From assembly GCA_965219405.1 (NCBI GenBank), contig OZ244736.1, positions 1,705,443-1,769,442 of the forward strand: DNA of 64,000 bases. The letters run 5' to 3'. A program made the position numbers and the translations under genes. The notes under the pieces are model-generated. The model had not been told where the DNA came from, did no database searches, and saw only the letters and a list, made by a program, of their open reading frames with translations. This DNA comes from Dehalococcoidia bacterium. Lineage in GTDB: Bacteria; Chloroflexota; Dehalococcoidia; UBA6926. Below, piece by piece: positions 183 through 25,876 of this stretch (the stretch's first letter is position 1; each line of letters starts with the position of its first letter).

Positions 183-392
183 GAAAACCGTCAGCACCCC
201 GATTAGTTGAATCCCTTTCCCCATTCGGATGAGCCTGTTCAGAGCGATACCTCGACAGTTAATTTTGGCCCGTATGTTGTACCTGCACGGCATTTTGAGG
301 ATGGACAGTGCCGCGACATTGCGAGTCTATCTGTGTGCGCGAAATTGTGTCAAGCGTCACAATCGGCAAGAACTGACCCCTATAATGGCCGC

Positions 393-1070
393 ATGGACGT
401 TCGAGTGAGGCTGTTTGCGGCACTGCGCGAGGCGGTGGGCGCTTCGGAAATCAGCGTTGAGATTCCGGAGGGCGAGCCGGTCTCGCGCTTGCTGGGCGAG
501 GCGCAGCGGCAACATCCGGCGCTGGCGAACCGCTGCGACGGCGTTGTTGTCGCCATTAACCAGGAGTATGTCGATCAGTCAACCACTATCTCCGCGGGCG
601 ATGAAGTCGCGCTGATTCCGCCGGTGAGTGGGGGGGCCGTCTCCGAGGCGGAGGCCGTGCAGGTTAGAGTGACGCCTGATCCACTGGACGCCCTGAGGAT
701 CACAGAGTCGCTCAAGACTTCGTCCGACGGTGCAGTTCTTACGTTTGAGGGCATCGTGCGGGACAACAATCTGGGGCGGCACGTGTTGTTCCTTGAATAC
801 GAGGCATACCCGGAGATGGCTGAGGGCGTGTTGCAGAAGATTGGGCGGGAAACGCTCGAGGATTTCGATATTGGCAGCATCGCTTTATGGCATCGGACAG
901 GACGACTTGAGATTGGAGAGACATCCCTTGTTGTGGCCGTGGCCTCGCCGCACCGGCGCGCGGCTTTTGACGCGTGCCGGGAGGCAGTGGAAAAGGTCAA
1001 GGCACTGGCGCCGGTCTGGAAACGCGAGGTTTGGGACGGCGGTTCAGAGTGGCTACGGGGAGCGGGATAG
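393..1070 (+). CDS. molybdopterin synthase MoaD-MoaE fusion (MoaX-like)
   Basis: An 81-aa MoaD module (MDVRVRLFAALREAVG...ISAGDEVALIPPVSGG) ends in Gly-Gly. It is followed in frame by a MoaE catalytic domain (VLTFEGIVRDNN...HVLFLEYEAYPEMAE...SLVVAVASPHRRAAFDACREAVEKVKALAPVWKRE). The ORF track starts at 207, but a conserved MoaD start is at 393. Confidence 0.8.
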   Translation: MDVRVRLFAALREAVGASEISVEIPEGEPVSRLLGEAQRQHPALANRCDGVVVAINQEYVDQSTTISAGDEVALIPPVSGGAVSEAEAVQVRVTPDPLDALRITESLKTSSDGAVLTFEGIVRDNNLGRHVLFLEYEAYPEMAEGVLQKIGRETLEDFDIGSIALWHRTGRLEIGETSLVVAVASPHRRAAFDACREAVEKVKALAPVWKREVWDGGSEWLRGAG

Positions 1071-1490
1071 GGTCTCGTCCTCATCATCACTACCCGCCTT
1101 ATATAGAACCGAGGCGACTTCCCGAATACGGGTCAGGCTGGCAGACGCGTAATCAGTGGCCTCATACCGTTGAATCTGCTGTTCCTTGACATGCAGCTTT
1201 TGGGCCAGGTCCTTTTGACTTAGGCCGCGAGAAATGCGGGCCTTTATCAGGACATCCGGCAACTGAGAGATGACGTCTAGCTGAACAGGCTCGAAATGGC
1301 CAGCTTTCAAGGATTCATATTCCTGCAGTTGATCCTCCAGGTCAGCCACCTGGCTACGAATGGCATCTTCCTGCGCCTTGGCAATAAGGGGGTGGGCCGC
1401 AGCGGGGTTCTGCTTGAGGTTTTCAAGCGTCCTGGCAAATCCCTCCACCTGCGCCTTTGTGATTCTGTATTGCCGTTCATTCTTAATCAT
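1053..1490 (-). CDS. XRE-family helix-turn-helix protein, putative antitoxin/regulator of the upstream nucleotidyltransferase-fold gene
   Basis: HTH_XRE signature RISRGLSQKDLAQKLHVKEQQIQRYE in the C-terminal half, with a coiled N-terminal region. The ATG at 1490 overlaps the stop of the upstream gene by 4 nt (ATGA). The ORF track gives a longer alternative to 1574. Confidence 0.6.
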   Translation of the reverse strand: MIKNERQYRITKAQVEGFARTLENLKQNPAAAHPLIAKAQEDAIRSQVADLEDQLQEYESLKAGHFEPVQLDVISQLPDVLIKARISRGLSQKDLAQKLHVKEQQIQRYEATDYASASLTRIREVASVLYKAGSDDEDETLSRSP

Positions 1491-1927
1491 TCCAAGCCTC
1501 CCAAATCTATGGCCACAATTCCCTTGCGCCTTCCGGTTTCCCTGTCTGTCTGAAAGAAATCCAAGAAAGACCAACCACCCAAATTGGCAACCGTGGTTGA
1601 TGGAAACATCTCACCCATGTACTTCGCCTTCTGCGCTGCCCGTTCCCTATCAAACGTCAGGAGCACCGGGTCTAGAAGCTCCGGATCAACGCCGGTTTCG
1701 TCCCAGCAGGCATCGAAATCATTGGGCTCCTTCTTAGAGGTGACGAAACTTCCGTTGAGCCACACAGTCCTGCATCCGGCTGCCTTGAGGATCCGGAGCG
1801 CAGCCCACAGCCCCACCAGCAGCATCCGCCTGTGCATGTTGTAGCCATAGCGACCCGCCAGTTCCTCCCAGTTGCTCCAGTGAACCCCCTCGGGTAGGAG
1901 TCCGCTCGCATCCAACTCAGGCAACAT
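1487..1927 (-). CDS. minimal nucleotidyltransferase-fold protein (pol-beta superfamily GS..DxD motif), putative toxin/effector
   Basis: WLNGSFVTSKKEPNDFDACWDE fits the hG[GS]-x9-13-DhD nucleotidyltransferase signature, with further acidic residues downstream. The protein is 146 aa and translationally coupled to the XRE gene. Confidence 0.55.
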   Translation of the reverse strand: MLPELDASGLLPEGVHWSNWEELAGRYGYNMHRRMLLVGLWAALRILKAAGCRTVWLNGSFVTSKKEPNDFDACWDETGVDPELLDPVLLTFDRERAAQKAKYMGEMFPSTTVANLGGWSFLDFFQTDRETGRRKGIVAIDLGGLE

Positions 1928-1936
1928 TACACAACA

Positions 1937-1965
1937 ATATTATTGTGTTGATGGAAGAGTGTCAA
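1937..1965 (-). promoter_or_regulatory. sigma70-like promoter (TTGACA-17-TAATAT) with overlapping imperfect palindrome (1928-1950) directly upstream of the NTase-XRE module
   Basis: Minus-strand read: cTTGACActcttccatcaacacaaTAATATtgttgtgtaATG. It has a -35 hexamer, a 17-nt spacer, a -10 hexamer and a near-leaderless start. The dyad CACAACAATAT/TATTGTGTTG spans -10 to the start codon, suggesting an autoregulatory operator. Confidence 0.4.
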
Positions 1966-1989
1966 GGACGGATGAGACGGCAGCTTTGA

Positions 1990-3759
1990 CTAGACGAGTC
2001 TCTTCGTCATGGTCACGTGCTCAATGCCGGCTTCCATGAACGTCTCACCGTGTTCGGCATAGCCCGCCTGTGCGTAGAAGCCCTTGACGTAGGTCTGGGC
2101 ATGGAGGAGGACCTGCACAAAGCCGCGTTCGCGGGCCGCATTCTCTAGCGTCGCCAGAATCCGGTCGCCTATTGCCCGCCGCCTGAGGTCCTGCCGGACG
2201 GCCATGCGGCCAATGCGGCACGTTTCCTCGTCCTCATCCGTTAGCAGACGACCCGTGCCGACAACCACATTCCCGATAAACGCAACAGCGTGGACGGCAT
2301 GTCCATCCCGCCCGTCCCACTCCTCATCGGGGTCCACATTCTGCTCATCGATGAAGACGACGCGGCGGAGGGCAAAAATCGCCTCCATGTCGTCTGTTTG
2401 GGCGATGCGGACCACCACGTCCGCCTCATCATCCGCAGTAGCTCCCTGCCCCATCTGATCCGCGTTGATGATCTCACGAGCAGCCTGCATGAGCACCGCA
2501 CGCCGCCCTGTGGCAACTGATGACTTGTCCATATAAAGGCCAAGGGCTTGTTCAGGCTCAAGCGACTCAATTGCCATGCCGCGGTCAAGGCGGGTTCGCG
2601 TTCTATCCGGCGTGTCGATTTGAACCGTAATGCCTGAGACGACGTGCGCGCCAGCTTGCCGCAGTGCGTTGCGAATGCGGACACGGTCCACTTCGCCCGC
2701 GAGTTCGGCGGGAGCCTGGATTTCCACGCGGGTTACGGCATCACGCACGTCTGCAGCCGCAAGGCGGGTGGCAATCGTTCCCATCACGTCCTGCTCGCCT
2801 GCGTGGACGGCGATCTTGATTGTCTTGAACGGGCGAGTCCACACGGGGTGGAATGACCATGCGGCGGCGCGGCGGCCGGGGGGGAGAGCTGGATCAAGGT
2901 CCACGACGCAGAATCCCTTGCCGTCATTCTCCTCGGAGAAATCAACGCGATGGATGCTCCCGGAATAGACAACGGGCGGGGCGTCTGCAATCAGTTGGTG
3001 GCGGTGGATGTGGCCCAGGGCGGCGTAGTCGATGGGGTGCGTTTGGAACGCGCTGGGCAGCAGCAAGTAGTCGTTGCCCATCATCATGCTGCGTTCGTGG
3101 CCGATGGTGGCTGTGGTGGCGGTGGCGTGGGCAGAGAGGATGGACGGCACGTTTGGGTCAAGTTCTCCGGCCATGCGGTTGATTTCATTGCTGAGGAAAC
3201 TCTGCATCCACTCGTTAACCTCAGCGGCGCTCTTTCCGTGCAGTTCTGCGCGCGTGACAGCGGAACTGCGGCGCAGCCACGGAACGGCAACAATCTGGAC
3301 GGGGCCGGCCGCGGTTTCAATGCGGTGGACGGCGAGGCGAGATGCAACTGTGACGTTATCGACGGCGAGCGCGTCAAAGATGTCCAGCGCAGTCGCCCTG
3401 CCCCCCGTATTGGGCACGTCATGGTTTCCGGTGAGGAGAAAGACGGGGATTCCGGCGAGGGCGAGGCGGCTGATGCGGCGGGCGAATTCTCGCTGGTGGG
3501 TCTGGGAGGGATCACGGGAGCGATAAGCGTCTCCGGAAAAGACAACGAGATCGGCGCGGGGCTCGGTCAGCGCGAAGTTGACGAGTTCATCGAGGGCACG
3601 GAGGGCATCAATGAGGCGAGACGGCATCCCGGTGTAGGTGGCGGCGCGATTGACGCCCGGAGCGAACGATTCCGGCAGCGTGTTGAGTTCGTCTGAGGTG
3701 ACGGGGCGACTGTGGGTCTCAACACCGACGTGGGCGTCGGCAAAGTGGATGATTCGCAT
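1990..3759 (-). CDS. SbcD/Mre11-type metallophosphoesterase nuclease fused to a C-terminal GNAT N-acetyltransferase domain
   Basis: The N-terminus has calcineurin-like motifs: MRIIHFADAHVG, VVFSGDAYRSRDP, LLTGNHD, SAHATA, GHIH. The last ~150 aa form a GNAT domain (VVRIAQTDDMEAIFALRRVVFIDEQ...RIGRMAVRQDLRRRAIGDRILATLENAARERGF...YAQAGY). No sbcC is adjacent. Confidence 0.7.
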   Translation of the reverse strand: MRIIHFADAHVGVETHSRPVTSDELNTLPESFAPGVNRAATYTGMPSRLIDALRALDELVNFALTEPRADLVVFSGDAYRSRDPSQTHQREFARRISRLALAGIPVFLLTGNHDVPNTGGRATALDIFDALAVDNVTVASRLAVHRIETAAGPVQIVAVPWLRRSSAVTRAELHGKSAAEVNEWMQSFLSNEINRMAGELDPNVPSILSAHATATTATIGHERSMMMGNDYLLLPSAFQTHPIDYAALGHIHRHQLIADAPPVVYSGSIHRVDFSEENDGKGFCVVDLDPALPPGRRAAAWSFHPVWTRPFKTIKIAVHAGEQDVMGTIATRLAAADVRDAVTRVEIQAPAELAGEVDRVRIRNALRQAGAHVVSGITVQIDTPDRTRTRLDRGMAIESLEPEQALGLYMDKSSVATGRRAVLMQAAREIINADQMGQGATADDEADVVVRIAQTDDMEAIFALRRVVFIDEQNVDPDEEWDGRDGHAVHAVAFIGNVVVGTGRLLTDEDEETCRIGRMAVRQDLRRRAIGDRILATLENAARERGFVQVLLHAQTYVKGFYAQAGYAEHGETFMEAGIEHVTMTKRLV

Positions 3760-3797: not shown

Positions 3798-5093
<1,296 letters not shown>

Positions 5094-5239
5094 ATCAGTC
5101 AGCGTCGGCTCAATGGTCACGTGGCGAGGCCTCCAACGGAATCTGGGCAATACTGCGCGGCGAGCGGCGCTGGGAGTGCCAGCGACGCTCAGCTATAAGG
5201 ATACAGGAGGGAGGGTGATGACAGGGGGATGTGGACCCG

Positions 5240-6061
5240 TCAACTACTTAGCACCGGTTGGATAATCCCATACCGGTCCGCCGCCAATCCAACCGTCTCC
5301 TGAATTAAATCGACGGGAATCACTGTGGCAAGTCCAGAGTTCTCCTGGACGATTAGCCTGGGCGTTCCGGTCTGCTCACTCAGAGCTACGTCAACGAACG
5401 GCTGATAGGCAGCCACAACGCCAATCAACTTGGGATCCTGGCGCGTTTGGCCATACGAGAACATGGTTGGCTTGAGAATGACCGGGCCTCCGCTATTTCC
5501 CGGAAAGACAAACGAATCTATCAGGAATTCCTTGGAGCGACGCTCATAACAGTCTTGAATCCGGGCAATAACTCCCTGGCGCACGATCACGTAGTTCTGT
5601 TCAGCGCCGGCCAGTCCAAGCGGGAAGCCGAGCACAAATACTTCGTCTCCCTCAGAGACGGAACCGCTCTTCATAGACTCCAGGCGTTCCGTCTGTCCGT
5701 TTCCCGTGAAGAATGCCATCTTTACATCTTCAAGGGCTTGCCCAAGTGAGTCTATTAGCAGAACAGCAACATCTACATCCGGGTCAGTATGAAAGATCCA
5801 GTGATCGTTTGGTCCGCCATCATTCGGAGGCAACGGCAGTATCTTGGGAGCAGTCCCGGCAAGCGCATTGAAACGTATTTGCGGGCTGCGTATCCCCTTC
5901 ACAACGTGCCGATTAGTGACCAGGTAAACGTAGTATCGGCCCTGATTCCCCGAAGGCTGCCCATACAAGAAGCCGGAGGCAGCGTACCGTATGTTTCCGT
6001 CTTTGTCCGGCGTGCCTAGCGCGACGACTTTATCCAGGAATGCAGGCGGGATCAAGGACAT
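5240..6061 (-). CDS. cytoplasmic trypsin-like (S1/chymotrypsin fold) serine peptidase
   Basis: The catalytic triad context is present: LVTNRHVV (His), DVDVAVLLID (Asp), GNSGGPV (Ser). There is no signal peptide or TM segment. Confidence 0.7.
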   Translation of the reverse strand: MSLIPPAFLDKVVALGTPDKDGNIRYAASGFLYGQPSGNQGRYYVYLVTNRHVVKGIRSPQIRFNALAGTAPKILPLPPNDGGPNDHWIFHTDPDVDVAVLLIDSLGQALEDVKMAFFTGNGQTERLESMKSGSVSEGDEVFVLGFPLGLAGAEQNYVIVRQGVIARIQDCYERRSKEFLIDSFVFPGNSGGPVILKPTMFSYGQTRQDPKLIGVVAAYQPFVDVALSEQTGTPRLIVQENSGLATVIPVDLIQETVGLAADRYGIIQPVLSS

Positions 6062-13575: not shown

Positions 13576-16500
13576 TCACACAATGAGCGGCTCGTCCGCG
13601 AATTCTCCGGTCATGTCGGTTTCCCCAAGCGCTATTTCGCCGTCGTCAATCTTCTGCCGAGTTGCGCTGAGGGCCGTGTTAATGTCTGATTCGCTCACCC
13701 AGTAGAGTGTTCTCGTCCGCAGGAACATCAGTCCCATTCTAGGCCGGTGTCCGGTGGCGGCTTCAATTGCACCGGCGTAGACGCCAAGCTGGGTGAGGTA
13801 CGCACTTGCGCGATCGGCCTCCTTGCCGTTTTCCACGCGGTCCGTTTTGAAATCCACCACGTGCCATGCGCCGTTGGTCTCATATGCGAGGTCGATGCTG
13901 CCGTGGACAGCGACACCGCCCCACTCCCACGAGAACGGCAACTCAAAGTGCGTCCGCGTCCTGGGACTGCGAAGAGTTGCGGCGAGGTCAGAGGTGTCGA
14001 AGTCGTCCAGCATGGCGTTCACGTCTGCCTCAAGGGCTGCCATCTCTTCGTCACTTAGCCGCGTGCCGATACGGCGCACCAAGTCACGCAGGCCTGGCCG
14101 GGTTCCGCTCTTGAACCACTCCTCGATGGCCATGTGAGCGAGTGTCCCTCGTGTGAGCGCCAAGGGGTCCGGCCTGCCGAAAAACGCGGTTCCATGACCA
14201 TCCTCGAACGCAGTTGCAGGCGTGCTTGAGCGGATGGGAATCGCGCCACGGCGGCCAAGGAGCGGGGCATGCGCAGGCTGCTCGGAATCAGCGGGGGGCG
14301 TATCAAAGGTGGTTCCCGGGACGCGGCTTCTCCTTTGTCGACCGTCCGGCCCGGGTTCTCGGGCAATTGTGGCGGCAAGATCAACCTGCATGGGTTCCTC
14401 TATCCGGACGAGGGGCGCGTTGCTGAATTCGATGAAATTTCCCAGCCACGTGGTCGCATCACCCGTCGGCTCTATTCCGGCAACAATGAGCAGATCTGCG
14501 GCACGGGTGGCGGCCACATAGAGCAGACGTTTGCTCTCCGCCTGATCCTCACGTTTCTCAAGCTCCGCCAGGTAACTGTAGAAAGCGGGCTTACTTCGAG
14601 CTTCGTCTATTTTCTCGACTTCTCGTTCCAACGTGAGAGAGATGCCTTTGTCAGCCCGCCACAGCACACTCGGCGAGCGCGAGGCTCCCTGCGTCGCCCC
14701 TGTTTCAGCAAGGATAACGACGGGGAACTCCAAGCCCTTGGCGGAGTGGATGGTCATGAGCCTGACTGCATCGACGGCGTCAAGCGCGGCCTGCGGGGCG
14801 CGCGTATCCAGATCGTCCCGCAGAAGGCAGATGTACTCGACGACTTCGTCGACGGATTTGTCTGCCAATCCACGCGCCATGCCCACGAACTGTCGGATGT
14901 TGGCCAGCACCTGGTCGCCACCTCGTAGCGGCGCCCACGACGCTTCGTAGTTCGTGAGAATCAGCGCGTTTTCAAGGAGTTGTTCAGGCGTCGCGAGGCG
15001 GGATTCTTCCCGGAGTTGATCAAGGACACGGGCTGCATGGATGCACAGTGGGCGGGTTTGGGGGAGGACACCGGCGGGCGGGTTGCGGAGGGCATCAAAC
15101 CAGGAGCCACCGGCCCCTTTCAAGGCAATCAGCGACTCATCATCAATGGCGAAGAATGGGGATCGCAGCAGGCCGACCAGGGCAATATCATTGGCGGGTT
15201 CGGCCAGCCATTCAAGCAGATTCGTCAGGTCGATGATCTCCGACCGGTTGTAGAAGTCGCCGGTTGACGCGGTTCGATACGCGATGTTGCTGTTCTCCAG
15301 AGCGCGCTCGTACTCGCTGACGTGAATCATGCTTCTCAGCAGGATCACAATGTCTTTCGCTTCTACTGCGCGAGGTTCGCCTGCGTCCCTGTCCCAGACC
15401 TTGTACTTGATGTCGATAAGACTCTTGATGCGTTGCGCGACGACGTGTGCTTCCATGCGCCGTCCCTCTCTCTGTGTTGGCGCGCTCTTGCCGTCGGTTT
15501 CTTTGTGCGCGCTGGCGATCTGGAGAATCTCAACCGGCGGGGAGTTTGAATGCGCCTGGCGGTCTGATGACATGGGCTCCATCGACGCCTCGTAGTCTTC
15601 ACTCGCATCTCCAAGCACGCCGGTCATGACGCCATTGATTGCGTCAACGAGGCGTTCATGGGAACGGAATGATGTGTTGAGCGAGACGGTTGCGCCTTTC
15701 GCAGCCTCTATCTCCGTTTTCAGTTGGTTGAGCTTGCGGACATCGCTGCGCCGGAATCGATAGATGGACTGCTTGACGTCGCCGACGAAGAATCGCTCCG
15801 GCCTGCGCGCATTGGCGTCCCCAGCTACTTTCCCGCCCGCCAAGAGGTCAAGAAGTTCATACTGCGTCGGGTTGAGGTCCTGCGCCTCGTCGACGAGGAT
15901 GTGGCGAAGGCGATCGCGGTAGGCGGCGGTTACGGACTCGTTGCTGAGCATCTCGATGGCTTTCAGTTCGAGATCGAGGAAATCAAGCGCCGCCAACTCT
16001 CTTTTCCTCTCTTCATATCGTTTGGATGCGCTGAGGAATAGATCACGCAAGGAGTCAAGGACAGGCAGGGAGTCGGCATCGGCATCATCCCAGAGAAATG
16101 GGGCTACTTCTTCATACGTTTCTCGGATGGCCCTTACCGAATCACGCACTTCCTTGGGTGTAAAGCGCCACGCATTTTGGGATCCCCTGTTGCCGGGACT
16201 GGGAATCATGGACGCGGTGAGCAGACGTGCAATAAGGTCTTGCGTCGTTCCTGTTGTGAGGTCGCCAAGCGTTTCGAGGACACGTTCGACGGTTGGTGTG
16301 AGCGCGTCTTTTTCGCCGGGGACCTGCGCGTCCACAAGGAAGTCGCGGTGCTCGGTGAGTTTTGTGCGGCATTCGTCAATGAGCGGCTCAGCGAAGCGAT
16401 CAAGTGCCTGCTTGATATGCGTTCCCCATTCCTCGGGCGAGTCTCCGCCCATGGTCGAATAGGCACGAAGCACTTCATCACGACGGGCTACCATTATTGG

Positions 16501-16971
16501 CAACGCGCTCTGCGCCTGATAGATGCCGAGGCCGAGGAGAGCCTCGGTGCCCGGCCCTTCACCGGTAGCCGCCGACTCTATGGCATCACGGCAGGCGGCA
16601 AGGATTTCAGCCTGTGCCACGTTTTCGTCCAGTACCGTCGCGCCGGGATCAATACCCGCCTCCACGGGATTCTCTCTTAGCAGTTGGAGGCAGAGGGAGT
16701 GGATGGTGCCGATGATGGCTCGGTCGAGGTGTTGCACATGGCGAGCCAGCTCCGGACGATCCATAACGGCCTCACGAACACGCCCACGCATCTCTGCCGC
16801 GGCGGCGTCCGTAAATGTCACGGCGACAAGCTGATCAATCTCATGGTGCTGCAGCAGGCTCACGTAGCGCTCAACGAGGACACGTGTCTTTCCGCTGCCC
16901 GCACCCGCCGTCACGATGACGTCACGGCCACGTTCGGTTACCGCTTGTTCCTGTTCCGGTGTGAGGTTCAT
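13576..16971 (-). CDS. addA: ATP-dependent helicase/nuclease subunit A (AddA/RexA; UvrD-like helicase + PD-(D/E)xK nuclease)
   Basis: Walker A motif TAGAGSGKT, a UvrD-like helicase core, and a C-terminal nuclease motif (GSIDLAYETNGAWHVVDFKTD). Confidence 0.8.
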   Translation of the reverse strand: MNLTPEQEQAVTERGRDVIVTAGAGSGKTRVLVERYVSLLQHHEIDQLVAVTFTDAAAAEMRGRVREAVMDRPELARHVQHLDRAIIGTIHSLCLQLLRENPVEAGIDPGATVLDENVAQAEILAACRDAIESAATGEGPGTEALLGLGIYQAQSALPIMVARRDEVLRAYSTMGGDSPEEWGTHIKQALDRFAEPLIDECRTKLTEHRDFLVDAQVPGEKDALTPTVERVLETLGDLTTGTTQDLIARLLTASMIPSPGNRGSQNAWRFTPKEVRDSVRAIRETYEEVAPFLWDDADADSLPVLDSLRDLFLSASKRYEERKRELAALDFLDLELKAIEMLSNESVTAAYRDRLRHILVDEAQDLNPTQYELLDLLAGGKVAGDANARRPERFFVGDVKQSIYRFRRSDVRKLNQLKTEIEAAKGATVSLNTSFRSHERLVDAINGVMTGVLGDASEDYEASMEPMSSDRQAHSNSPPVEILQIASAHKETDGKSAPTQREGRRMEAHVVAQRIKSLIDIKYKVWDRDAGEPRAVEAKDIVILLRSMIHVSEYERALENSNIAYRTASTGDFYNRSEIIDLTNLLEWLAEPANDIALVGLLRSPFFAIDDESLIALKGAGGSWFDALRNPPAGVLPQTRPLCIHAARVLDQLREESRLATPEQLLENALILTNYEASWAPLRGGDQVLANIRQFVGMARGLADKSVDEVVEYICLLRDDLDTRAPQAALDAVDAVRLMTIHSAKGLEFPVVILAETGATQGASRSPSVLWRADKGISLTLEREVEKIDEARSKPAFYSYLAELEKREDQAESKRLLYVAATRAADLLIVAGIEPTGDATTWLGNFIEFSNAPLVRIEEPMQVDLAATIAREPGPDGRQRRSRVPGTTFDTPPADSEQPAHAPLLGRRGAIPIRSSTPATAFEDGHGTAFFGRPDPLALTRGTLAHMAIEEWFKSGTRPGLRDLVRRIGTRLSDEEMAALEADVNAMLDDFDTSDLAATLRSPRTRTHFELPFSWEWGGVAVHGSIDLAYETNGAWHVVDFKTDRVENGKEADRASAYLTQLGVYAGAIEAATGHRPRMGLMFLRTRTLYWVSESDINTALSATRQKIDDGEIALGETDMTGEFADEPLIV

Positions 16972-19862
16972 TGCTTGTGCCGACTGAATGCATTGACGCG
17001 GCAAACATGCTTCATGGCGCAATAGCGGGGGCAGTCGTCAGGCGTCGGATTAACGCGGAAGTCACCCCCCTGAATGGCATCCCGACTCTTTTGGACAACA
17101 CCGACAATTCCGTTGATGGCCTCTTCATCCATGGAATCGCTTGCACTAAGGGTCCACGACTTCGTTCCGCTTGCTGCGGGCAGCCGCGCATATGCCGCGC
17201 TAACAGGCTTGCCGCCGGCGCGAGGGTCGTTCTTGAGCGCGTAGGCGTAGACAGGCAGTTGCGCCGATTCTCCCCTGTGCACCTTTGCACGGCTATCGAT
17301 GCCACCGGTCTTGTAGTCGATGACCAAGAGGCCGTCCGGTGTCTCGTCTATGCGATCGACACGGCCAAATACGCGCATAGGTGGAGTCGTGGGAACCTCG
17401 CCCTCCACCCACTCTTCGGTCTTCAACACGCGATAGTCTTCGTTTGCGCCGGCAGGAAGCTTCTGCTGCTCAAGCATCTTGACGATACGCTCGCGGTAGC
17501 GCTGCCATTCGAGCCGCCACAGCGCCGCCTGCCCAAAGCCATGCTCCTCCGGCGCGCTGTTCCACGTATCACGGCCCTTGGTGTCGATAGACTGGATGAC
17601 CCTGCCAATAGTGTCCTCAGAAAGCGGCAGGCCCTCCGCGATAAGGGGCTTGAATGCCTCTTCCAGGATGGCGTGGACGATCGTGCCGCGCATCGCGCCG
17701 TCGCCCTCGTCCGGCTCATCATCGAGCTCATTGAGGCCGAGCACGTAGCGACCGAAGAACTGGAATGAGCACGTCAGATACGAATCCAATGACGACGCGC
17801 TCCACCTCGCCCCGGATTGCGTCAATCGCGGCACAAGCCCCCGTGAGACCCTGCCCTCATACTCGCCTGCAAAATAGAACGACCGCCTGATTTGTTCTTC
17901 TTGCGCGGCGATGAGGACGGTGGCCCAGGGATCGGTTTCCTGTGGCGGTGGCGGGCGGAGCCACGCTCCGTTCAGCCAACCGCGGGCGCAGGCGACGGCC
18001 AACTCTCTGCCTGAGGCAGACTCATCAATCGTCTGCGTATCTGTGCGCTTCTCCGGTTCAGATTCAACTGCCTGGAATACCCACGCGGGTGTTGCTTCTT
18101 TCCCTGAACCGTTGAGGCGGTAACGCCACAGGTTGGTGGAGCTCTCCGAGCGGGACGTGACGGAGTTCCAGAGTTCTTCCTCGGTGGAGCGCGGGGCGGG
18201 CGGGAGTGGGAGGCCGGCTTCAATCAGGTCCTGGCGCATCTCATCGCTCAGGAGATCGCCGTAGCGACGGCCGGCCGGGAACTCGCCCTCGGAAAGGCCG
18301 CCCACCATGACATGTTTGAAACGCAGGCCGTGCATGGTGTGCATGGGGGCGAGGAGCACACCGCCGGGGGTCCGCCGCAGGAGGACCGGCATGGCGAGGC
18401 GACGCTCCAGCCGTTCACGAAAACGTTCGAACGGCTCTATATCATCGCCATTGCCATCGACCTCGCGCAGCGAATTCACCATCTCGTTCAGATAGGAACG
18501 GAGTTGTTCGATACACTGCGCCGTCTCATCGTCAACGTCTCGCGTGTCTCGCAGCCAGCCATTCTCGCCGTACAGCGCGTCCGTAAGTCGTTGCACTCGG
18601 TCGGCGGAGTCCGCCTCAAGGCTCTCATGCAGTTCACGGAGGTCAGACAGCGCGGCGGCGAAACCGGAGGGACTGTTGACGGCCAAGCCGTCGAGTGCCT
18701 CCAAGCCTGCCCAAATCTTGTTCTCACGCGCCGTTTGGGCGATGTGATCCAGATCACCGCCCGTAAGTCTCCAGCGCTGGAGGTCGACGACGCCGCTGCG
18801 AAGAATGGAGATGATGTCCTTGACACGCCATCCGTTGTCCTTGACGCCGAGCAGTCGATTCAGCCAGGAGCCGAGCGGCGTATCGCGCAGGCGCGCGCCT
18901 GCCGCCGGATCAAGCGGGATGTCATATTCCGTAAAGATGCGGCGCATCATGGCGAGATAGGGTGTGACCTGACGGAACGTGACGGCGCAATCGGACGGCC
19001 TCAGTGTTGGATCGGCTGCCAGTTTCTGCTTGATTTGCCTCGCAATCTCCCTCGCATGCTGCTCGGTATTCGCCGCCTCACCCTTTGCCACGTCGGCAGC
19101 ATTGTCCTGTGGCCGAGCGATCTCCGTCTTCAGCTTGGCAGGCCATTGTTCTCGTAAACGTTCCAAGTCGAATCTGGAGCGTTCCGTGGCTTCGGGTTCA
19201 AAGCTGATTGTCATGTCTGATCGCGCAGACAGTGCCGCTAGCAGTGTCAGTTCCTGTGCCGTGAACCGCTGGAAGCCGTCCACCATCACGACTCTCGGCA
19301 CACTCGCACCATTTTGTACGGCCCTCGCAGCCCATTGGTTGACCTGCACCGGATGTATCAGCCTCAGTCGTTCCAGTTCACCGACATAGGTGGCATAGAT
19401 GTCCGCGAGGGCGCGGGCGGGTACGGAGCCAGTTCGCACTGCGGCGATCCGCAAAGAGTCCGGGTCGATGTGCTCTTCAAGGAGGCTCCCAACAGCTGGT
19501 CCAATCATTCCCACAAAGCCGGCCATGTCGGCGATAGGCTTGAAATAGTCGGCGTCCCCACCACGTGCGACAGTTCTGCGTGTGACACGCGCCAACTCGT
19601 CCGCGGCTCTCGCCGAGCTCAGGATTGGCGAGCCCGCGGTGAGGCCACGTGCCAACATGGTCAGCGTTTCCACGCGCAGATTCATAGCGACGCCGCATTC
19701 CCGCACGAGACGCCGACGAAATTGGTCCGCGTGGCGAATGGTCGGTACGAGCACTAGCGCGTCGGCGAACGAGTCTGAGCCGTAGAGGCCTGCGAGACGC
19801 GCGACTATTTCGCGCGTCTTTCCGCTACCCGCCCCGCCCGTAATGATCTCAACGCTCGGCAT
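16968..19862 (-). CDS. addB: ATP-dependent helicase/nuclease subunit B (AddB/RexB) with C-terminal Fe-S/nuclease domain
   Basis: Degenerate Walker A motif GGAGSGKT, a nuclease motif VIDYKTGG, and a terminal Cys cluster CPRYCAMKHVC. It overlaps addA by 4 nt. Confidence 0.8.
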   Translation of the reverse strand: MPSVEIITGGAGSGKTREIVARLAGLYGSDSFADALVLVPTIRHADQFRRRLVRECGVAMNLRVETLTMLARGLTAGSPILSSARAADELARVTRRTVARGGDADYFKPIADMAGFVGMIGPAVGSLLEEHIDPDSLRIAAVRTGSVPARALADIYATYVGELERLRLIHPVQVNQWAARAVQNGASVPRVVMVDGFQRFTAQELTLLAALSARSDMTISFEPEATERSRFDLERLREQWPAKLKTEIARPQDNAADVAKGEAANTEQHAREIARQIKQKLAADPTLRPSDCAVTFRQVTPYLAMMRRIFTEYDIPLDPAAGARLRDTPLGSWLNRLLGVKDNGWRVKDIISILRSGVVDLQRWRLTGGDLDHIAQTARENKIWAGLEALDGLAVNSPSGFAAALSDLRELHESLEADSADRVQRLTDALYGENGWLRDTRDVDDETAQCIEQLRSYLNEMVNSLREVDGNGDDIEPFERFRERLERRLAMPVLLRRTPGGVLLAPMHTMHGLRFKHVMVGGLSEGEFPAGRRYGDLLSDEMRQDLIEAGLPLPPAPRSTEEELWNSVTSRSESSTNLWRYRLNGSGKEATPAWVFQAVESEPEKRTDTQTIDESASGRELAVACARGWLNGAWLRPPPPQETDPWATVLIAAQEEQIRRSFYFAGEYEGRVSRGLVPRLTQSGARWSASSLDSYLTCSFQFFGRYVLGLNELDDEPDEGDGAMRGTIVHAILEEAFKPLIAEGLPLSEDTIGRVIQSIDTKGRDTWNSAPEEHGFGQAALWRLEWQRYRERIVKMLEQQKLPAGANEDYRVLKTEEWVEGEVPTTPPMRVFGRVDRIDETPDGLLVIDYKTGGIDSRAKVHRGESAQLPVYAYALKNDPRAGGKPVSAAYARLPAASGTKSWTLSASDSMDEEAINGIVGVVQKSRDAIQGGDFRVNPTPDDCPRYCAMKHVCRVNAFSRHKQ

Positions 19863-23866: not shown

Positions 23867-25843
23867 TCAGGGCGTCCTGAGGTGCGCCGGCGTGCGCCGG
23901 GCGCAGTAGGCGCAGGTTCCGATGGGGGAAGTTTCGCCGGTGGAGAGGGGATTCCCCGGAGCGGTGAGACTTGTTGGCGTTGTTCCGGCCTTCACTAGCA
24001 GGCGGTGCAGCAAGCAGAGGGGGAGGCCGACGACGTTGAGATAGCAGCCGTTGAGTTCTGCGACGGGGCGGAATTCCGGGTGTTGGATGCCGTAGGCGCC
24101 TGCCTTATCGAACGGGTCGCCGGTGGCGATGTAGCCCTCAATTTCCTCGTCTGTGTAGTTGCGCATGCGGCCTATGGTGATTTCGTGACCGACGATGGGC
24201 TCAGGGTTGTCGCCGGACGGGATGACAGCGATGGCGGTTATGACCTGGTGGTCTCCTTCTCTAAGCGTGCGGAGCATCTGGCGGGCCTCATCCACGTTCT
24301 GTGGTTTGTTGAGGATGCGGCCGTCCGGGGCGACAACAACGGTGTCCGCGCCAACGACCGGGACTGCTGCGGTGTCGTCCGTGATGGATTGGGCTTTTCT
24401 GAGGGCGAGGTCCTGGACGTAGGCGACGGGCGGGGAGGCGGGGATAACGGAGTCAGCAGATTGTTCGATGTTGGAGGCGGGGGCGAGGGCGGCGAAAGGG
24501 GTGCTTTGGTGGGTGAGGATTTCGCGGCGGCGGGCTGAGGTGGAGGCGAGAATAAAGCCGTCTGACGGCATTCGCTCCAAGGTCGAAACGCTTTCAATGT
24601 GGTAGGTGTGGGGGAACATATCGACGGGTGTGACGTCGGTCAGCATGTAGCCGTAGAGGATGAGCTTGTTCAGGTCGCGGGCGAGGGTGGCCGGATCGCA
24701 GGAAACGTAGACAATGCGGCGGGGTTGGAGTCGGCGTAAGGCATCGATGACCTCCGGATAGCAGCCGGCGCGTGGCGGGTCAAGGATGACGGCATCGACG
24801 CGCTCATCAAGTTCCGGCAGGGCCTCTTCCGTCTTGGCCATGATCATCTCGACGTTGGGGAATGGCGCGAGATTGACTTCAGCGTCGCGGATGGCGGCGG
24901 CGGATTCTTCTATGGCAATGACGCGTCCGACCATCGGGGCAATGAGAGCAGCAATTGTCCCGACACCGGCGTAGGCGTCAACAACGGTGTCAGAGGACGT
25001 GGGTTGGAGGCGGTCCCTGACCAAGGCCATCATGCGCTCGGCCTGGGCGGTGTTGACCTGGAAGAAAGAGGCAGCGGACACCTTGAACGGCACGTCGAAC
25101 AGCTGCTCCTCATAGGATTCCTGGCCTGTTTCAACGCCCCGGTCATCGCCGCGATCGTTGAGAGCAGGATGGATGAGTGTCTCGCCCGTGTTCTTGCCGA
25201 TACGGACGGCAAGCTGGCGCTCGCGGTTGGTCAGCGCGCCATCGAGCTTGCGCTTGATATCGTTGATGCGCGTGTCCATGATCAGGCACTCATCGATGGG
25301 TTCGAACCGATGAGTGTGCCAATGGGTGAATCCGGTTGTGCCTTCGCGTCGCACGGTAAAACGAGCGTTGTTGCGGTAGTTCCAGGGGTTTTCGGCGGCA
25401 AGGATTTCTGAGACTGGCGGCTCCATAATCTGGCCGATCTGTCGGAGTTGATCAGTAAGGGCGCTCTGCTTGATCCTGCCCTGCTCTTCATAAGAGATGT
25501 GCTGGAGCTGGCAACCGCCGCACGCGCCAAAGTGCGGGCAGCGGGGTTCCACGCGCTCCGGCGATGGACGCAACACCTCCACGACCTCAGCAACGATGTG
25601 CGTTGGGTGCTCTTCACGCACCTCAACAATAACGCGCTCGCCCGCGATGCCGTAGGAGGCGAGGACGATTTTCCCGTCCTCACGTCGTCCCTCTGCCTCA
25701 CCCTGATGGCCCGAGCGCTCAAGTTCAACCGTGAGTCGCTGCGGCGGGCCGTCAGGAGTGGAAGATTTGCCGTTTCGCGGGGGAAATCGGCGGTGTTTCT
25801 TTCTGCTGGCTTTCATGGTTGTGGGAATCAGGGTAGCGGCCAC
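23867..25843 (-). CDS. 23S rRNA (uracil-C5)-methyltransferase RlmD/RumA-like (TRAM + 4Fe-4S + class I MTase) fused to C-terminal Maf nucleoside-triphosphate pyrophosphatase domain
   Basis: It has the CPHFGACGGCQLQH cluster, VVDAYAGVGTIA, DPPRAGC, and then ILASTSARRREIL...VVGADTVVV...GDPFDKAGAYGIQ (Maf). The exact start is uncertain. Confidence 0.7.
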   Translation of the reverse strand: MAATLIPTTMKASRKKHRRFPPRNGKSSTPDGPPQRLTVELERSGHQGEAEGRREDGKIVLASYGIAGERVIVEVREEHPTHIVAEVVEVLRPSPERVEPRCPHFGACGGCQLQHISYEEQGRIKQSALTDQLRQIGQIMEPPVSEILAAENPWNYRNNARFTVRREGTTGFTHWHTHRFEPIDECLIMDTRINDIKRKLDGALTNRERQLAVRIGKNTGETLIHPALNDRGDDRGVETGQESYEEQLFDVPFKVSAASFFQVNTAQAERMMALVRDRLQPTSSDTVVDAYAGVGTIAALIAPMVGRVIAIEESAAAIRDAEVNLAPFPNVEMIMAKTEEALPELDERVDAVILDPPRAGCYPEVIDALRRLQPRRIVYVSCDPATLARDLNKLILYGYMLTDVTPVDMFPHTYHIESVSTLERMPSDGFILASTSARRREILTHQSTPFAALAPASNIEQSADSVIPASPPVAYVQDLALRKAQSITDDTAAVPVVGADTVVVAPDGRILNKPQNVDEARQMLRTLREGDHQVITAIAVIPSGDNPEPIVGHEITIGRMRNYTDEEIEGYIATGDPFDKAGAYGIQHPEFRPVAELNGCYLNVVGLPLCLLHRLLVKAGTTPTSLTAPGNPLSTGETSPIGTCAYCARRTPAHLRTP

Positions 25844-25876
25844 GCAAGCGGGCAGGCAAGGAATCGGTGGCGATGT

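What the first reader, a model, noticed from the sequence alone, without database searches (positions are those of the whole stretch)
1990..3759. SbcD/Mre11-type nuclease fused to a C-terminal GNAT acetyltransferase, without an adjacent SbcC partner
Residues 1-~440 have all calcineurin-like phosphoesterase motifs of SbcD/Mre11 (MRIIHFADAHVG, GDAYR, GNHD, GHIH). Residues ~445-589 form an apparently intact GNAT domain (RQDLRRRAIG acetyl-CoA-binding loop). SbcD normally works with the SbcC ATPase, and none is nearby. A nuclease covalently linked to an acetyltransferase is not a standard architecture. It lies directly upstream of the NTase-XRE module, so a functional link is conceivable (e.g. acetyl-CoA-dependent control of a DNA-end nuclease, or a defence-associated nuclease).
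Basis: partly seen in the sequence, partly recalled or inferred. Interest (0 to 1): 0.5.

Follow-up and report, generated by a model that had tools for sequence, protein, structure and literature searches.

The report
SbcD nuclease with tethered GNAT acetyltransferase
One lineage of marine Dehalococcoidia bacteria carries a complete SbcD/Mre11 DNA-end nuclease with a small ElaA-type acetyltransferase attached to its tail by a flexible linker; the fusion is real, rare and under selection, but its purpose is unproven and the add-on looks optional.

Summary
Window 1990-3759 (-) is one intact 589-aa ORF. It has a full SbcD/Mre11 nuclease with all phosphoesterase motifs, a capping domain and a C-terminal helix-loop-helix. 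A 12-aa disordered linker follows, then an ElaA/YjcF/SACOL1063-type GNAT.

The fusion is not an artefact. It occurs in about 40 protein clusters (49-98% identity) and 9 GTDB species, all Dehalococcoidia. Nuclease, HLH and GNAT are under purifying selection; the linker is not. An exhaustive profile search of 1.84 billion representatives found this junction in no other lineage.

The link is dispensable. One relative lost the GNAT. Several carry SbcD and GNAT as adjacent genes broken inside the linker, one case confirmed in two assemblies.

No SbcC lies in the 64 kb window or next to any relative. That holds for the whole Dehalococcoidia glyS-sbcD family, fused or not. The conserved HLH suggests an unlinked SbcC, which I could not locate.

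The neighbouring DUF6932-XRE pair is a roughly 0.9 kb cassette inserted into the last codons of the gene in a few close relatives. It has its own promoter-like site and is not a partner.

Verdict: a new variant of a known kind. The GNAT's role, regulator of the nuclease or independent passenger, is open.

The parts
1990..3759 (-). Whole SbcD-GNAT gene (589 codons plus stop at 1990-1992)
   Evidence: ORF list; Pfam and NCBIfam hits; full-length homologues P0001-P0042
2890..3759 (-). Residues 1-290: Mre11/SbcD phosphoesterase (nuclease) domain. Catalytic residues D8, H10, D77, N112, H113, H211, H250 and H252 are invariant in 73 homologues. It contains a family-typical insert at about residues 17-45.
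   Evidence: dN/dS 0.07-0.11 for residues 1-385
2614..2868 (-). Residues 298-382: capping domain
   Evidence: AF2 secondary structure with pLDDT above 90; Foldseek alignment to SbcD/Mre11 nuclease-plus-capping structures such as 7dog and 4lty
2455..2556 (-). Residues 402-435: helix-loop-helix, in the position of the Rad50/SbcC-binding element of Mre11/SbcD. P402, A405 and L406 are at least 96% conserved and Y409 is invariant across fused and unfused homologues.
   Evidence: AF2 helices 402-412 and 417-435. Alignments to HLH-containing chains 3tho_B and 7yzo_A are about 50 columns longer than to HLH-less chains. Conservation. dN/dS 0.09-0.16.
2419..2454 (-). Residues 436-447: disordered, acidic linker. 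Its length varies (about 12-35 aa) and its sequence is poorly conserved. It is the site where the gene is broken in split relatives.
   Evidence: pLDDT below 50 at 434-445; alignment; dN/dS 0.25-1.65; split junctions
1993..2418 (-). Residues 448-589: GNAT domain of the ElaA/YjcF/SACOL1063 subfamily. Motif A reads R-R-R-A-I-G, so Ala529 replaces the usual first Gly.
   Evidence: Pfam; PDB sequence hits 5jph, 1q2y, 5z6n, 1xeb; Foldseek 5jph_A TM 0.92; dN/dS 0.09-0.26; motif A variation
3798..5150 (-). glyS-type glycyl-tRNA synthetase, 38 nt upstream on the same strand. This is context only. The glyS-sbcD linkage is conserved across Dehalococcoidia with or without the GNAT, and co-transcription is probable (inferred).
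   Evidence: Pfam; intergenic sequence; synteny

Best explanation
This is a genuine, probably active SbcD (bacterial Mre11) nuclease subunit. In one Dehalococcoidia lineage it acquired a C-terminal ElaA/SACOL1063-type GNAT acetyltransferase.

Shown: the nuclease part is complete, with all metal-binding motifs, the capping domain and the C-terminal helix-loop-helix. The GNAT hangs from that helix-loop-helix on a 12-35-residue disordered tether. Both domains and the HLH are kept by purifying selection. The covalent link itself is dispensable.

Inferred: the conserved HLH means the protein still docks onto an SbcC ATPase encoded elsewhere in the genome. The tether would then hold the GNAT next to the SbcC head and coiled-coil base, where DNA ends and end-bound proteins are engaged. 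There the GNAT would use acetyl-CoA to acetylate a nearby target and modulate end processing. Candidate targets are lysines of SbcC or SbcD, a DNA-end-bound protein, or a small amine. The GNAT would be an optional, lineage-specific accessory module rather than a core part of the nuclease.

I hold the architecture and its evolutionary reality at about 0.95. I hold the functional coupling of the GNAT to the nuclease at about 0.45.
For: - Architecture.
- Catalytic residues are invariant in 73 homologues.
- The fusion is kept in about 40 clusters down to 49% identity and in 9 GTDB species representatives.
- dN/dS is 0.07-0.11 for the nuclease, 0.09-0.16 for the HLH and 0.09-0.26 for the GNAT, against 0.25-1.65 for the linker.
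- Where the gene is broken, the break lies in the linker and the GNAT ORF stays intact and immediately adjacent. L089 and L090 show an overlapping TGATG stop/start in two independent assemblies. L005 has an ATGA overlap. L093 has an in-frame TAG. L094 has a frameshift.
- The HLH residues P402, A405, L406 and Y409 are near-invariant in fused and unfused homologues. This argues for a retained binding partner.
- No second ElaA-like GNAT gene was seen on the 1-2 Mb contigs that carry the fusion, judged by contig-length comparison.
Against: - No SbcC was found in the window or within 6-10 kb of any of the 16 relatives' loci examined, and I could not search whole genomes. SbcC dependence is therefore inferred only.
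- The GNAT is absent from the close relative P0033 (71% identity, same synteny) and from P0099 (same synteny), so SbcD works without it.
- The same GNAT subfamily is mostly standalone, sits in varied contexts in other Dehalococcoidia, and is fused elsewhere to unrelated enzymes: SDR, HAD, alpha/beta-hydrolase, 4HBT thioesterase, pseudouridine synthase and DUF7931.
- The nearest characterised homologue, SACOL1063, acetylates free amino acids in vitro, not proteins (PMC10267138).
- The first Gly of the acetyl-CoA-binding motif A is Ala in this window and Arg or Gln in some close relatives.
- No literature describes an SbcD-GNAT protein.
Confidence: 0.45

Rival explanations
1. Passenger fusion. 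The GNAT is the lineage's ordinary ElaA-like small-molecule (for example amino-acid) N-acetyltransferase. It landed downstream of sbcD and became joined by loss of a stop codon. The two domains work independently, and the fusion persists because it is harmless and guarantees expression.
For: This GNAT subfamily is mostly standalone and is fused to many unrelated enzymes. SACOL1063 acetylates threonine and other free amino acids (PMC10267138). In E. coli MadA/YiiD, a GNAT domain modelled on the SACOL1063 structure is fused to a hot-dog domain that functions without it (PMC8666670). The GNAT is lost in P0033 and split off repeatedly with no change in SbcD. The linker is long, variable and disordered. 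No extra standalone paralogue appears on the fusion-bearing contigs, so the fused copy may be the only housekeeping copy.
Against: The fusion has been maintained across saturated synonymous divergence (49% identity) in three deep sub-clades. The attachment point is exactly the partner-binding tail of SbcD. In the other Dehalococcoidia loci clustered, contexts of the standalone GNAT differ, so there is no evidence that it needs this locus.
Confidence: 0.35
2. SbcC-independent nuclease. The Dehalococcoidia glyS-linked SbcD family acts without any SbcC. In the fused clade the GNAT supplies a regulatory or substrate-recruiting function that replaces part of SbcC's role.
For: No sbcC lies next to any family member examined, fused or unfused, in four different gene contexts. 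No SbcC-like ORF occurs in 1.58 Mb of fetched loci.
Against: The HLH that binds Rad50/SbcC in solved complexes is retained and under purifying selection in all members. Most family members have no GNAT at all, so the GNAT cannot be a general SbcC substitute. Unlinked sbcC and sbcD genes are also possible, so lack of adjacency is not absence.
Confidence: 0.1
3. Defence-associated nuclease that works with the adjacent DUF6932 (NTase-like)-XRE pair.
For: The genes are adjacent in the window. DUF6932 weakly matches a PADLOC candidate family, PDC-M63A, at 1.4e-9.
Against: The pair is present in only a subset of the closest relatives. It was inserted into the last codons of the SbcD-GNAT gene. It has its own promoter-like site and palindrome. 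SbcD-GNAT has no PADLOC hit and sits in a vertically inherited housekeeping neighbourhood.
Confidence: 0.03
4. Artefact or decaying pseudogene: an assembly read-through of two genes, or a dead GNAT remnant.
For: Some relatives from low-coverage long-read assemblies show breaks in the linker. Motif A Gly529 is substituted in this window.
Against: The same uninterrupted ORF is found in about 40 independent clusters from different assemblies and sources. GNAT dN/dS is 0.09-0.26. The GNAT fold is predicted with high confidence and matches SACOL1063 at TM 0.92.
Confidence: 0.01

Closest known systems
SbcD / bacterial Mre11 (E. coli SbcD in SbcCD, PDB 6s6v/7yzo; Thermotoga maritima Mre11 in Mre11:Rad50, PDB 3tho/3qg5)
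   Same: It shares the phosphoesterase motifs, nuclease and capping domains, a flexible linker and a C-terminal helix-loop-helix. TIGR00619 scores above its cutoff. Foldseek E-values are 1e-20 to 1e-19.
   Different: It carries an extra C-terminal GNAT domain and an about 30-residue insert near the N-terminus. The gene follows glyS rather than lying in an sbcDC operon, and no sbcC is nearby. Scores are far below the equivalog cutoffs (NF008206: 64 bits against 450), so it is a divergent family member.
ElaA/YjcF/SACOL1063 subfamily of GNAT acetyltransferases (PDB 5jph, 1q2y, 5z6n, 1xeb)
   Same: The fold matches (TM 0.92, rmsd 1.8 A). It shares the motifs RxxVFxxEQ and FxEAGIEHxxMxK. The size is about 140 aa.
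   Different: Here the domain is covalently attached to a DNA nuclease. Motif A has Ala, or Arg/Gln in close relatives, in place of the first Gly. It scores below the ElaA equivalog cutoff (47.7 bits against 171). The physiological substrate of the whole subfamily is unknown. SACOL1063 acetylates free amino acids in vitro (PMC10267138).
E. coli MadA (YiiD): GNAT domain fused to a hot-dog malonyl-ACP decarboxylase
   Same: A GNAT domain that was homology-modelled on SACOL1063 is fused to an unrelated catalytic domain. That domain works without the GNAT, and standalone versions (MadB) exist (PMC8666670). This parallels the GNAT-less and split SbcD relatives here.
   Different: The partner domain, the domain order (GNAT is N-terminal in MadA) and the pathway (fatty-acid initiation) all differ. 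MadA is an analogy for an accessory GNAT of unknown role, not a homologous system.
Unfused glyS-linked SbcD orthologues of Dehalococcoidia (P0044-P0120, 411-443 aa)
   Same: They share 44-51% identity, the same motifs and HLH, the same position downstream of glyS and the same lack of an adjacent sbcC.
   Different: They end a few residues after the HLH and have no GNAT.

Membership tests
SbcD/Mre11 nuclease | Calcineurin-like phosphoesterase motifs I-V (D-x-H, G-D, G-N-H-D/E, H, G-H-x-H) | tested here: met
   D8/H10, G76-D77, G111-N112-H113-D114, H211 and G249-H250-x-H252 are invariant in 73 homologues. Pfam Metallophos scores 48.9 bits.
SbcD/Mre11 nuclease | Curated family model above its cutoff | tested here: met
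   TIGR00619 sbcd (subfamily) scores 147.6 bits against a cutoff of 77.65. The equivalog models NF008206, NF041753 and NF041754 are not reached.
SbcD/Mre11 nuclease | Nuclease plus capping domain fold | tested here: met
   The AF2 model has pLDDT above 90 over most of residues 1-382. Foldseek hits include 3thn, 4lty and 7dog with target-normalised TM 0.76-0.81.
SbcD/Mre11 nuclease | C-terminal helix-loop-helix that binds the Rad50/SbcC coiled-coil base | tested here: inconclusive
   Two helices at 402-412 and 417-435 are predicted with pLDDT 71-77. Alignments to HLH-containing chains (3tho_B, 7yzo_A) are longer. The element is conserved and under purifying selection. Binding itself was not testable.
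SbcD/Mre11 nuclease | Partner ATPase SbcC/Rad50 encoded in the genome, classically adjacent | tested here: not met
   Adjacency is not met. There is none in the 64 kb window and none within 6-10 kb in the relatives' loci. Presence elsewhere in the genome could not be tested with these tools.
SbcD/Mre11 nuclease | Mn2+-dependent exo/endonuclease activity | not testable with these tools
   This needs purified protein.
GNAT acetyltransferase, ElaA/YjcF/SACOL1063 subfamily | GNAT profile above the gathering score | tested here: met
   Acetyltransf_10 scores 56.7 against 23.6, Acetyltransf_1 scores 43.8 against 20.7, and Acetyltransf_7 scores 37.1 against 27.
GNAT acetyltransferase, ElaA/YjcF/SACOL1063 subfamily | GNAT fold closest to subfamily structures | tested here: met
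   Foldseek 5jph_A gives TM 0.92, rmsd 1.8 A and 28% identity. phmmer hits are 5jph at 5.6e-18, 1q2y, 3efa, 5z6n (ElaA) and 1xeb.
GNAT acetyltransferase, ElaA/YjcF/SACOL1063 subfamily | Acetyl-CoA pyrophosphate-binding motif A (Q/R-x-x-G-x-G/A) | tested here: inconclusive
   The window has R-R-R-A-I-G, with Ala529 in place of the first Gly. Of the 33 fused homologues aligned, that position is Gly in 24, Ala in 2, Arg in 6 and Gln in 1. The substitution may be tolerated because binding is through the backbone (general GNAT knowledge).
GNAT acetyltransferase, ElaA/YjcF/SACOL1063 subfamily | ElaA equivalog model (NF007644) above its cutoff | tested here: not met
   The score is 47.7 bits against a cutoff of 171. 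The domain is a subfamily relative, not an ElaA equivalog.
GNAT acetyltransferase, ElaA/YjcF/SACOL1063 subfamily | Acetyl-CoA-dependent acyl transfer to a defined acceptor | not testable with these tools
   This needs biochemistry. The acceptor is unknown for the whole subfamily.
Known or candidate anti-phage defence system (PADLOC-DB 2.0) | Match of the protein to a defence-system model | tested here: not met
   SbcD-GNAT has no hit at E <= 0.001. The adjacent cassette is a variable insertion.

The most novel reading that the evidence does not exclude
The tethered GNAT is a dedicated protein acetyltransferase of the SbcCD machine. Held at the SbcC head by the SbcD helix-loop-helix, it acetylates SbcC, SbcD or proteins blocking DNA ends in an acetyl-CoA-dependent way, so that double-strand-break end processing is gated by metabolic state. 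This would be a bacterial counterpart of acetylation control of eukaryotic MRN. In this reading the split and standalone ElaA-like GNATs would hint at a wider, unrecognised DNA-repair role for the uncharacterised ElaA/YjcF family.
Probability: 0.15. Interest if true: 0.7.

Novelty: new variant of a known kind. Interest (0 to 1): 0.38.

Why it matters
Mre11/SbcD is one of the most conserved DNA-repair nucleases. Apart from its ATPase partner, little is known about how bacteria regulate it.

A naturally occurring, selectively maintained fusion to an acetyltransferase offers a concrete hypothesis that can be tested with recombinant protein. The fusion sits exactly at the tail that contacts SbcC. 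The hypothesis is acetylation, or acetyl-CoA sensing, at the SbcCD head.

The fusion also gives the first functional lead for the uncharacterised ElaA/YjcF/SACOL1063 GNAT subfamily. If the fusion is only a passenger, the value is smaller. It would then be a documented case of a promiscuous GNAT fusion with repeated fission, plus the observation that Dehalococcoidia keep sbcD downstream of glyS and unlinked to sbcC.

Tried and rejected
1. Locating sbcC.
- I scanned every ORF of 250 aa or more in the window by length, and annotated by Pfam all ORFs of 500 aa or more plus a selection of the shorter ones.
- I ran a P-loop plus LSGGE regular-expression scan over 1.58 Mb of fetched loci.
- I looked next to unfused orthologues in four different contexts.
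- None was found. A word-indexed protein search with a foreign SbcC seed would return only the seed's own clade, so I did not spend it.

2. Literature. No paper describes an SbcD or Mre11 fused to a GNAT. Nothing useful turned up on SbcCD in Chloroflexi or Dehalococcoidia. The ElaA/YjcF search was swamped by unrelated acronyms.

3. Defence hypothesis. Rejected on PADLOC and on the cassette-insertion evidence.

4. Plasmids. There is no fused homologue, only separate SbcD or GNAT hits below 46% identity.

5. afdb50 fold search. The library was unavailable.

6. Conserved neighbours of the standalone GNAT in other Dehalococcoidia. ORF clustering showed several different neighbourhoods (conserved neighbours seen by sequence included an SDR-like, a methyltransferase-like and an AlaX-like protein). 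No recurrent neighbour resembled the SbcD family; these neighbours were not profile-searched.

7. Apparent long actinobacterial GNAT fusions (L035, L036, L038, L058, L067). These are over-extended high-GC ORFs with Arg-rich junk N-termini, not real fusions.

8. A TacT-like aminoacyl-tRNA-acetylating toxin, suggested by the glyS neighbour. I considered this and dropped it. The glyS linkage predates the GNAT, and the GNAT belongs to the ElaA subfamily.
Full report
**Observation**

The window has one uninterrupted ORF on the minus strand at 1990-3759. It is 589 aa long and starts with ATG.

- Pfam assigns Metallophos to residues 1-253 and three GNAT models to 450-588, all above their gathering scores.
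- NCBIfam TIGR00619 (sbcd, subfamily) scores 147.6 bits against a cutoff of 77.65.
- The species-level SbcD equivalog models and the ElaA equivalog are not reached. Both halves are therefore divergent members of their families.

**Anatomy**

An AlphaFold2 model was built on 73 homologues. It has mean pLDDT 87.3 and pTM 0.64. It shows these elements:

- a phosphoesterase domain at about 1-290;
- a capping domain at about 298-382;
- a low-confidence connector at 383-398;
- two helices at 402-412 and 417-435;
- a disordered stretch at 434-445, with pLDDT below 50;
- a compact alpha/beta domain at 448-588.

Foldseek against the PDB returns Mre11/SbcD as top hits. These include chains from Mre11:Rad50 and SbcCD head complexes (3tho_B at 1.3e-20, 7yzo_A at 2.2e-19). 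Those alignments span about 450 columns. HLH-less crystal constructs align over about 390-400 columns, which indicates that the two C-terminal helices align with the Rad50/SbcC-binding helix-loop-helix.

The last domain matches the S. aureus GNAT SACOL1063 (5jph_A) with target-normalised TM 0.92 and rmsd 1.8 A. By sequence, the nearest solved proteins are SACOL1063, B. subtilis YjcF (1q2y), E. coli ElaA (5z6n) and PA0115 (1xeb).

The catalytic residues D8, H10, D77, N112, H113, H211, H250 and H252 are invariant in the 73 homologues. In the HLH, Y409 is invariant and P402, A405 and L406 are at least 96% conserved, in fused and unfused proteins alike.

In the GNAT, the subfamily motifs (RxxVFxxEQ, GTGR, RIGRMAV, LHAQ, FxEAGIEH) are conserved. 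The first glycine of the acetyl-CoA loop is not constant. It is Ala in this window and in its 98% twin, Arg or Gln in seven close relatives, and Gly in the other 24 fused sequences aligned.

**Distribution and evolution**

A search of 5.8 billion clustered proteins gave about 40 full-length fused clusters at 49-98% identity (P0001-P0042). Hundreds of 411-443-aa unfused SbcD relatives follow at 44-51% identity. Every hit that a source names is Chloroflexota, and the named genomes are Dehalococcoidia MAGs. A scan of 185,579 species-representative genomes found the fusion in nine species, all labelled Dehalococcoidia (L007-L015).

I then searched 1.84 billion 50%-identity representatives exhaustively with a profile spanning capping domain, HLH and GNAT. 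Only one full-length representative (P0029) and three fragments joined both parts. All other strong hits were about 145-aa standalone GNATs or GNATs fused to something else. The other partners, checked by Pfam, are DUF7931 with a tandem GNAT, a pseudouridine synthase, an alpha/beta-hydrolase, an SDR, a HAD hydrolase and a 4HBT thioesterase. This particular fusion is thus confined to one lineage, and the GNAT subfamily is a promiscuous fusion partner.

Pairwise Nei-Gojobori estimates against eight close relatives, where dS is not saturated, gave these dN/dS values:

| Region | dN/dS |
|---|---|
| Nuclease plus capping | 0.07-0.11 |
| HLH | 0.09-0.16 |
| GNAT | 0.09-0.26 |
| Linker | 0.25-1.65 |

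Both domains and the HLH are under purifying selection. The tether is not.

A neighbour-joining tree of the SbcD part places the fused proteins in three deep groups. Exceptions are nested among them.

- P0033 (71% identity, identical synteny) has no GNAT.
- P0034 has SbcD and GNAT as two genes with an overlapping TGATG stop/start inside the linker. This is seen in an ENA contig and in an independent Logan assembly of a different run.
- P0035/L005 has an ATGA overlap at a different linker position, from a 3x assembly.
- L093 has an in-frame TAG replacing the linker's CAG codon.
- L094 has a 1-nt frameshift in the linker, from a 12x long-read assembly.

At least one fission is real. Some of the others may be long-read errors. 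In every case the GNAT ORF is intact and stays directly behind sbcD.

**Genomic context**

The neighbourhood is conserved: Na+/H+ exchanger, UPF0102, two Zn_ribbon_8 genes, (trypsin-like peptidase), glyS, sbcD(-GNAT), then convergent moaD-moaE, then the cox operon. It holds in fused, split and GNAT-less relatives.

More distant unfused orthologues still lie downstream of glyS (L003, L091) or in another context (L087). None has an sbcC neighbour.

In the window, every ORF of 500 aa or more belongs to another family. These families are:

- AddA and AddB at 13576-19862;
- a CoA-transferase;
- a TrmA-Maf fusion;
- a recombinase;
- a molybdopterin oxidoreductase;
- a pyruvate:ferredoxin oxidoreductase subunit;
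- two membrane proteins;
- Nuo/Mrp subunits.

So 'no adjacent SbcC' is true, but it is a property of the whole class-level family and not of the fusion. sbcD starts 38 nt after the glyS stop codon with no promoter-like match between them. Co-transcription is therefore likely, though this is inferred.

**The DUF6932-XRE pair is an insertion**

The pair occurs only in the window, L001/L007, L008, L012 and L093, among the fused or split relatives examined. Relatives without it have a 592-aa protein ending ...TKDLS(R/G)(S/A)P, whose 3' end overlaps the moaDE stop.

In the window, the sequence CTATCCCGCTCCCCGTAGCCACTC that ends the L011 SbcD-GNAT gene instead ends the XRE gene, at 1053-1070. SbcD-GNAT has a new C-terminus...TKRLV. 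A cassette of roughly 0.9 kb was therefore inserted into the last five or so codons of the gene.

The cassette carries its own TTGACA-17-TAATAT site (1965-1937) overlapping a 21-nt palindrome, CAACACAATAATATTGTTGTG. It is an autonomous element of toxin-antitoxin or defence type. DUF6932 weakly hits the PADLOC candidate PDC-M63A. It is not a partner of the nuclease.

**What is known about the GNAT subfamily**

A paper that cites the original SACOL1063 work reports that this enzyme and a homologue acetylate threonine and some other free amino acids in vitro (PMC10267138). Its structure served as the template for the N-terminal GNAT domain of E. coli MadA/YiiD. That domain is fused to a hot-dog decarboxylase which functions without it (PMC8666670). 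No physiological acceptor is known for ElaA or YjcF; this last point is from my own knowledge and I did not verify it here.

**Mechanism**

Shown:

- a complete, conserved SbcD with an HLH;
- a GNAT tethered to the HLH by a flexible, fast-evolving linker;
- selection acting on both domains;
- a GNAT that is dispensable and separable.

Inferred: the conserved HLH implies a retained partner, most simply an unlinked SbcC. The tether would then hold the GNAT near the SbcC head and coiled-coil base.

My preferred reading, at about 0.45, is an accessory acetyl-CoA-using module that acts on a target near the SbcCD head. The main rival, at about 0.35, is an independent small-molecule acetyltransferase that became fused by accident of adjacency. 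Three observations support that rival: the subfamily's many unrelated fusions, the GNAT-less relatives, and the lack of a second ElaA-like gene on the fusion-bearing 1-2 Mb contigs (contig-length comparison). An SbcC-independent nuclease (0.1), a defence role (0.03) and an artefact (0.01) are less likely.

**Comparison and novelty**

The protein is a member of the SbcD/Mre11 family by motifs, profile and fold, although the classical sbcDC operon feature is not met. It is a relative of the ElaA/YjcF/SACOL1063 GNATs, not an ElaA equivalog. I found no description of this architecture in the literature, none among plasmids and none outside this clade. I rate it a new variant of a known kind. It is interesting mainly as a testable lead on regulation of bacterial Mre11 and on the function of an orphan GNAT subfamily.

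**Limits**

- I could not determine whether these genomes encode SbcC.
- I could not test enzymatic activity.
- I could not verify which linker breaks in long-read assemblies are real.
- The neighbour-joining tree is only a rough guide to the order of fusion, fission and loss.

Noticed in passing
window 1053-1989 (-): DUF6932 gene 1487-1927, XRE/HTH gene 1053-1574, promoter-like site 1937-1965: A DUF6932-XRE two-gene cassette of roughly 0.9 kb was inserted into the last five or so codons of the SbcD-GNAT gene. The original 3' end (…LSRSP*) now terminates the XRE gene. The cassette has its own TTGACA-17-TAATAT site overlapping a 21-nt palindrome, CAACACAATAATATTGTTGTG. It is present only in a subset of close relatives. 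DUF6932 hits the PADLOC candidate PDC-M63A at 1.4e-9. It looks like a mobile toxin-antitoxin or defence-type module.
   Followed up: partly
window 5240-6061 (-): A trypsin-like peptidase (Trypsin_2) strongly matches the PADLOC candidate defence family PDC-S45 at 1.5e-28. It is present between the Zn-ribbon genes and glyS only in the closest relatives and is absent from L002, L004, L005 and L014. It may be a second variable insertion in this locus.
   Followed up: partly
window 3798-5150 (-) and loci L003, L091, L092: sbcD lies directly or closely downstream of the glycyl-tRNA synthetase gene across distantly related Dehalococcoidia, including unfused orthologues at 44-51% identity. sbcC is never adjacent. 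This gene linkage is old, unexplained and class-wide.
   Followed up: partly
L093 5989-5991 (in-frame TAG); L089 7339-7343 (TGATG); L005 9341-9344 (ATGA); L094 about 5960-6008: The disordered linker between the HLH and the GNAT is repeatedly broken in relatives, by a nonsense codon, by overlapping stop/start codons or by a frameshift. The result is separate adjacent sbcD and GNAT genes. Only the L089/L090 case is confirmed by two independent assemblies.
   Followed up: partly
window 2173-2175 (codon of residue 529): The first glycine of GNAT motif A (R-x-x-G-x-G) is Ala here. It is Arg or Gln in seven close relatives and Gly in the rest of the fused clade. Acetyl-CoA binding may be altered in this sub-clade.
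   Followed up: partly
proteins P0124, P0135, P0151, P0154, P0185, P0195, P0233, P0238; loci L045, L065, L073, L082: The same ElaA-like GNAT subfamily is fused in other phyla to a tandem GNAT plus DUF7931, a pseudouridine synthase, a HAD hydrolase, an alpha/beta-hydrolase, an SDR and a 4HBT thioesterase. In Gammaproteobacteria it carries an uncharacterised C-terminal domain of about 190 aa.
   Followed up: partly
window 3625-3711 (residues about 17-45 of the protein): An insert of about 30 residues lies between phosphoesterase motif I and the first long helix (…SRPVTSDELNTLPESFAPGVNRAATYTGMPSR…). It is modelled with high confidence. It is conserved in most of the Dehalococcoidia SbcD family but missing in P0040 and P0108.
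   Followed up: no
window 207-1070 (+): This is a MoaD(ThiS)-MoaE fusion gene, convergent with the SbcD-GNAT region. Its last 18 nt overlap the 3' end of the XRE gene. In cassette-free relatives they overlap the 3' end of SbcD-GNAT itself.
   Followed up: partly
window 13576-19862 (-): An AddA (UvrD helicase plus PD-(D/E)XK) and AddB-like (ADDB_N plus PD-(D/E)XK) gene pair lies about 10 kb from sbcD. It is not followed by sbcCD, unlike the arrangement I recall for Bacillus.
   Followed up: no
window 23867-27172: A 658-aa ORF fuses a tRNA (U5)-methyltransferase-like domain to a Maf domain (23867-25843, -). Its 5' part overlaps a 574-aa ORF on the other strand (25448-27172, +). That ORF has serine-recombinase 'Recombinase' and Zn_ribbon_recom domains but no detected N-terminal resolvase domain. 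It may be a remnant or boundary of an integrated element.
   Followed up: no
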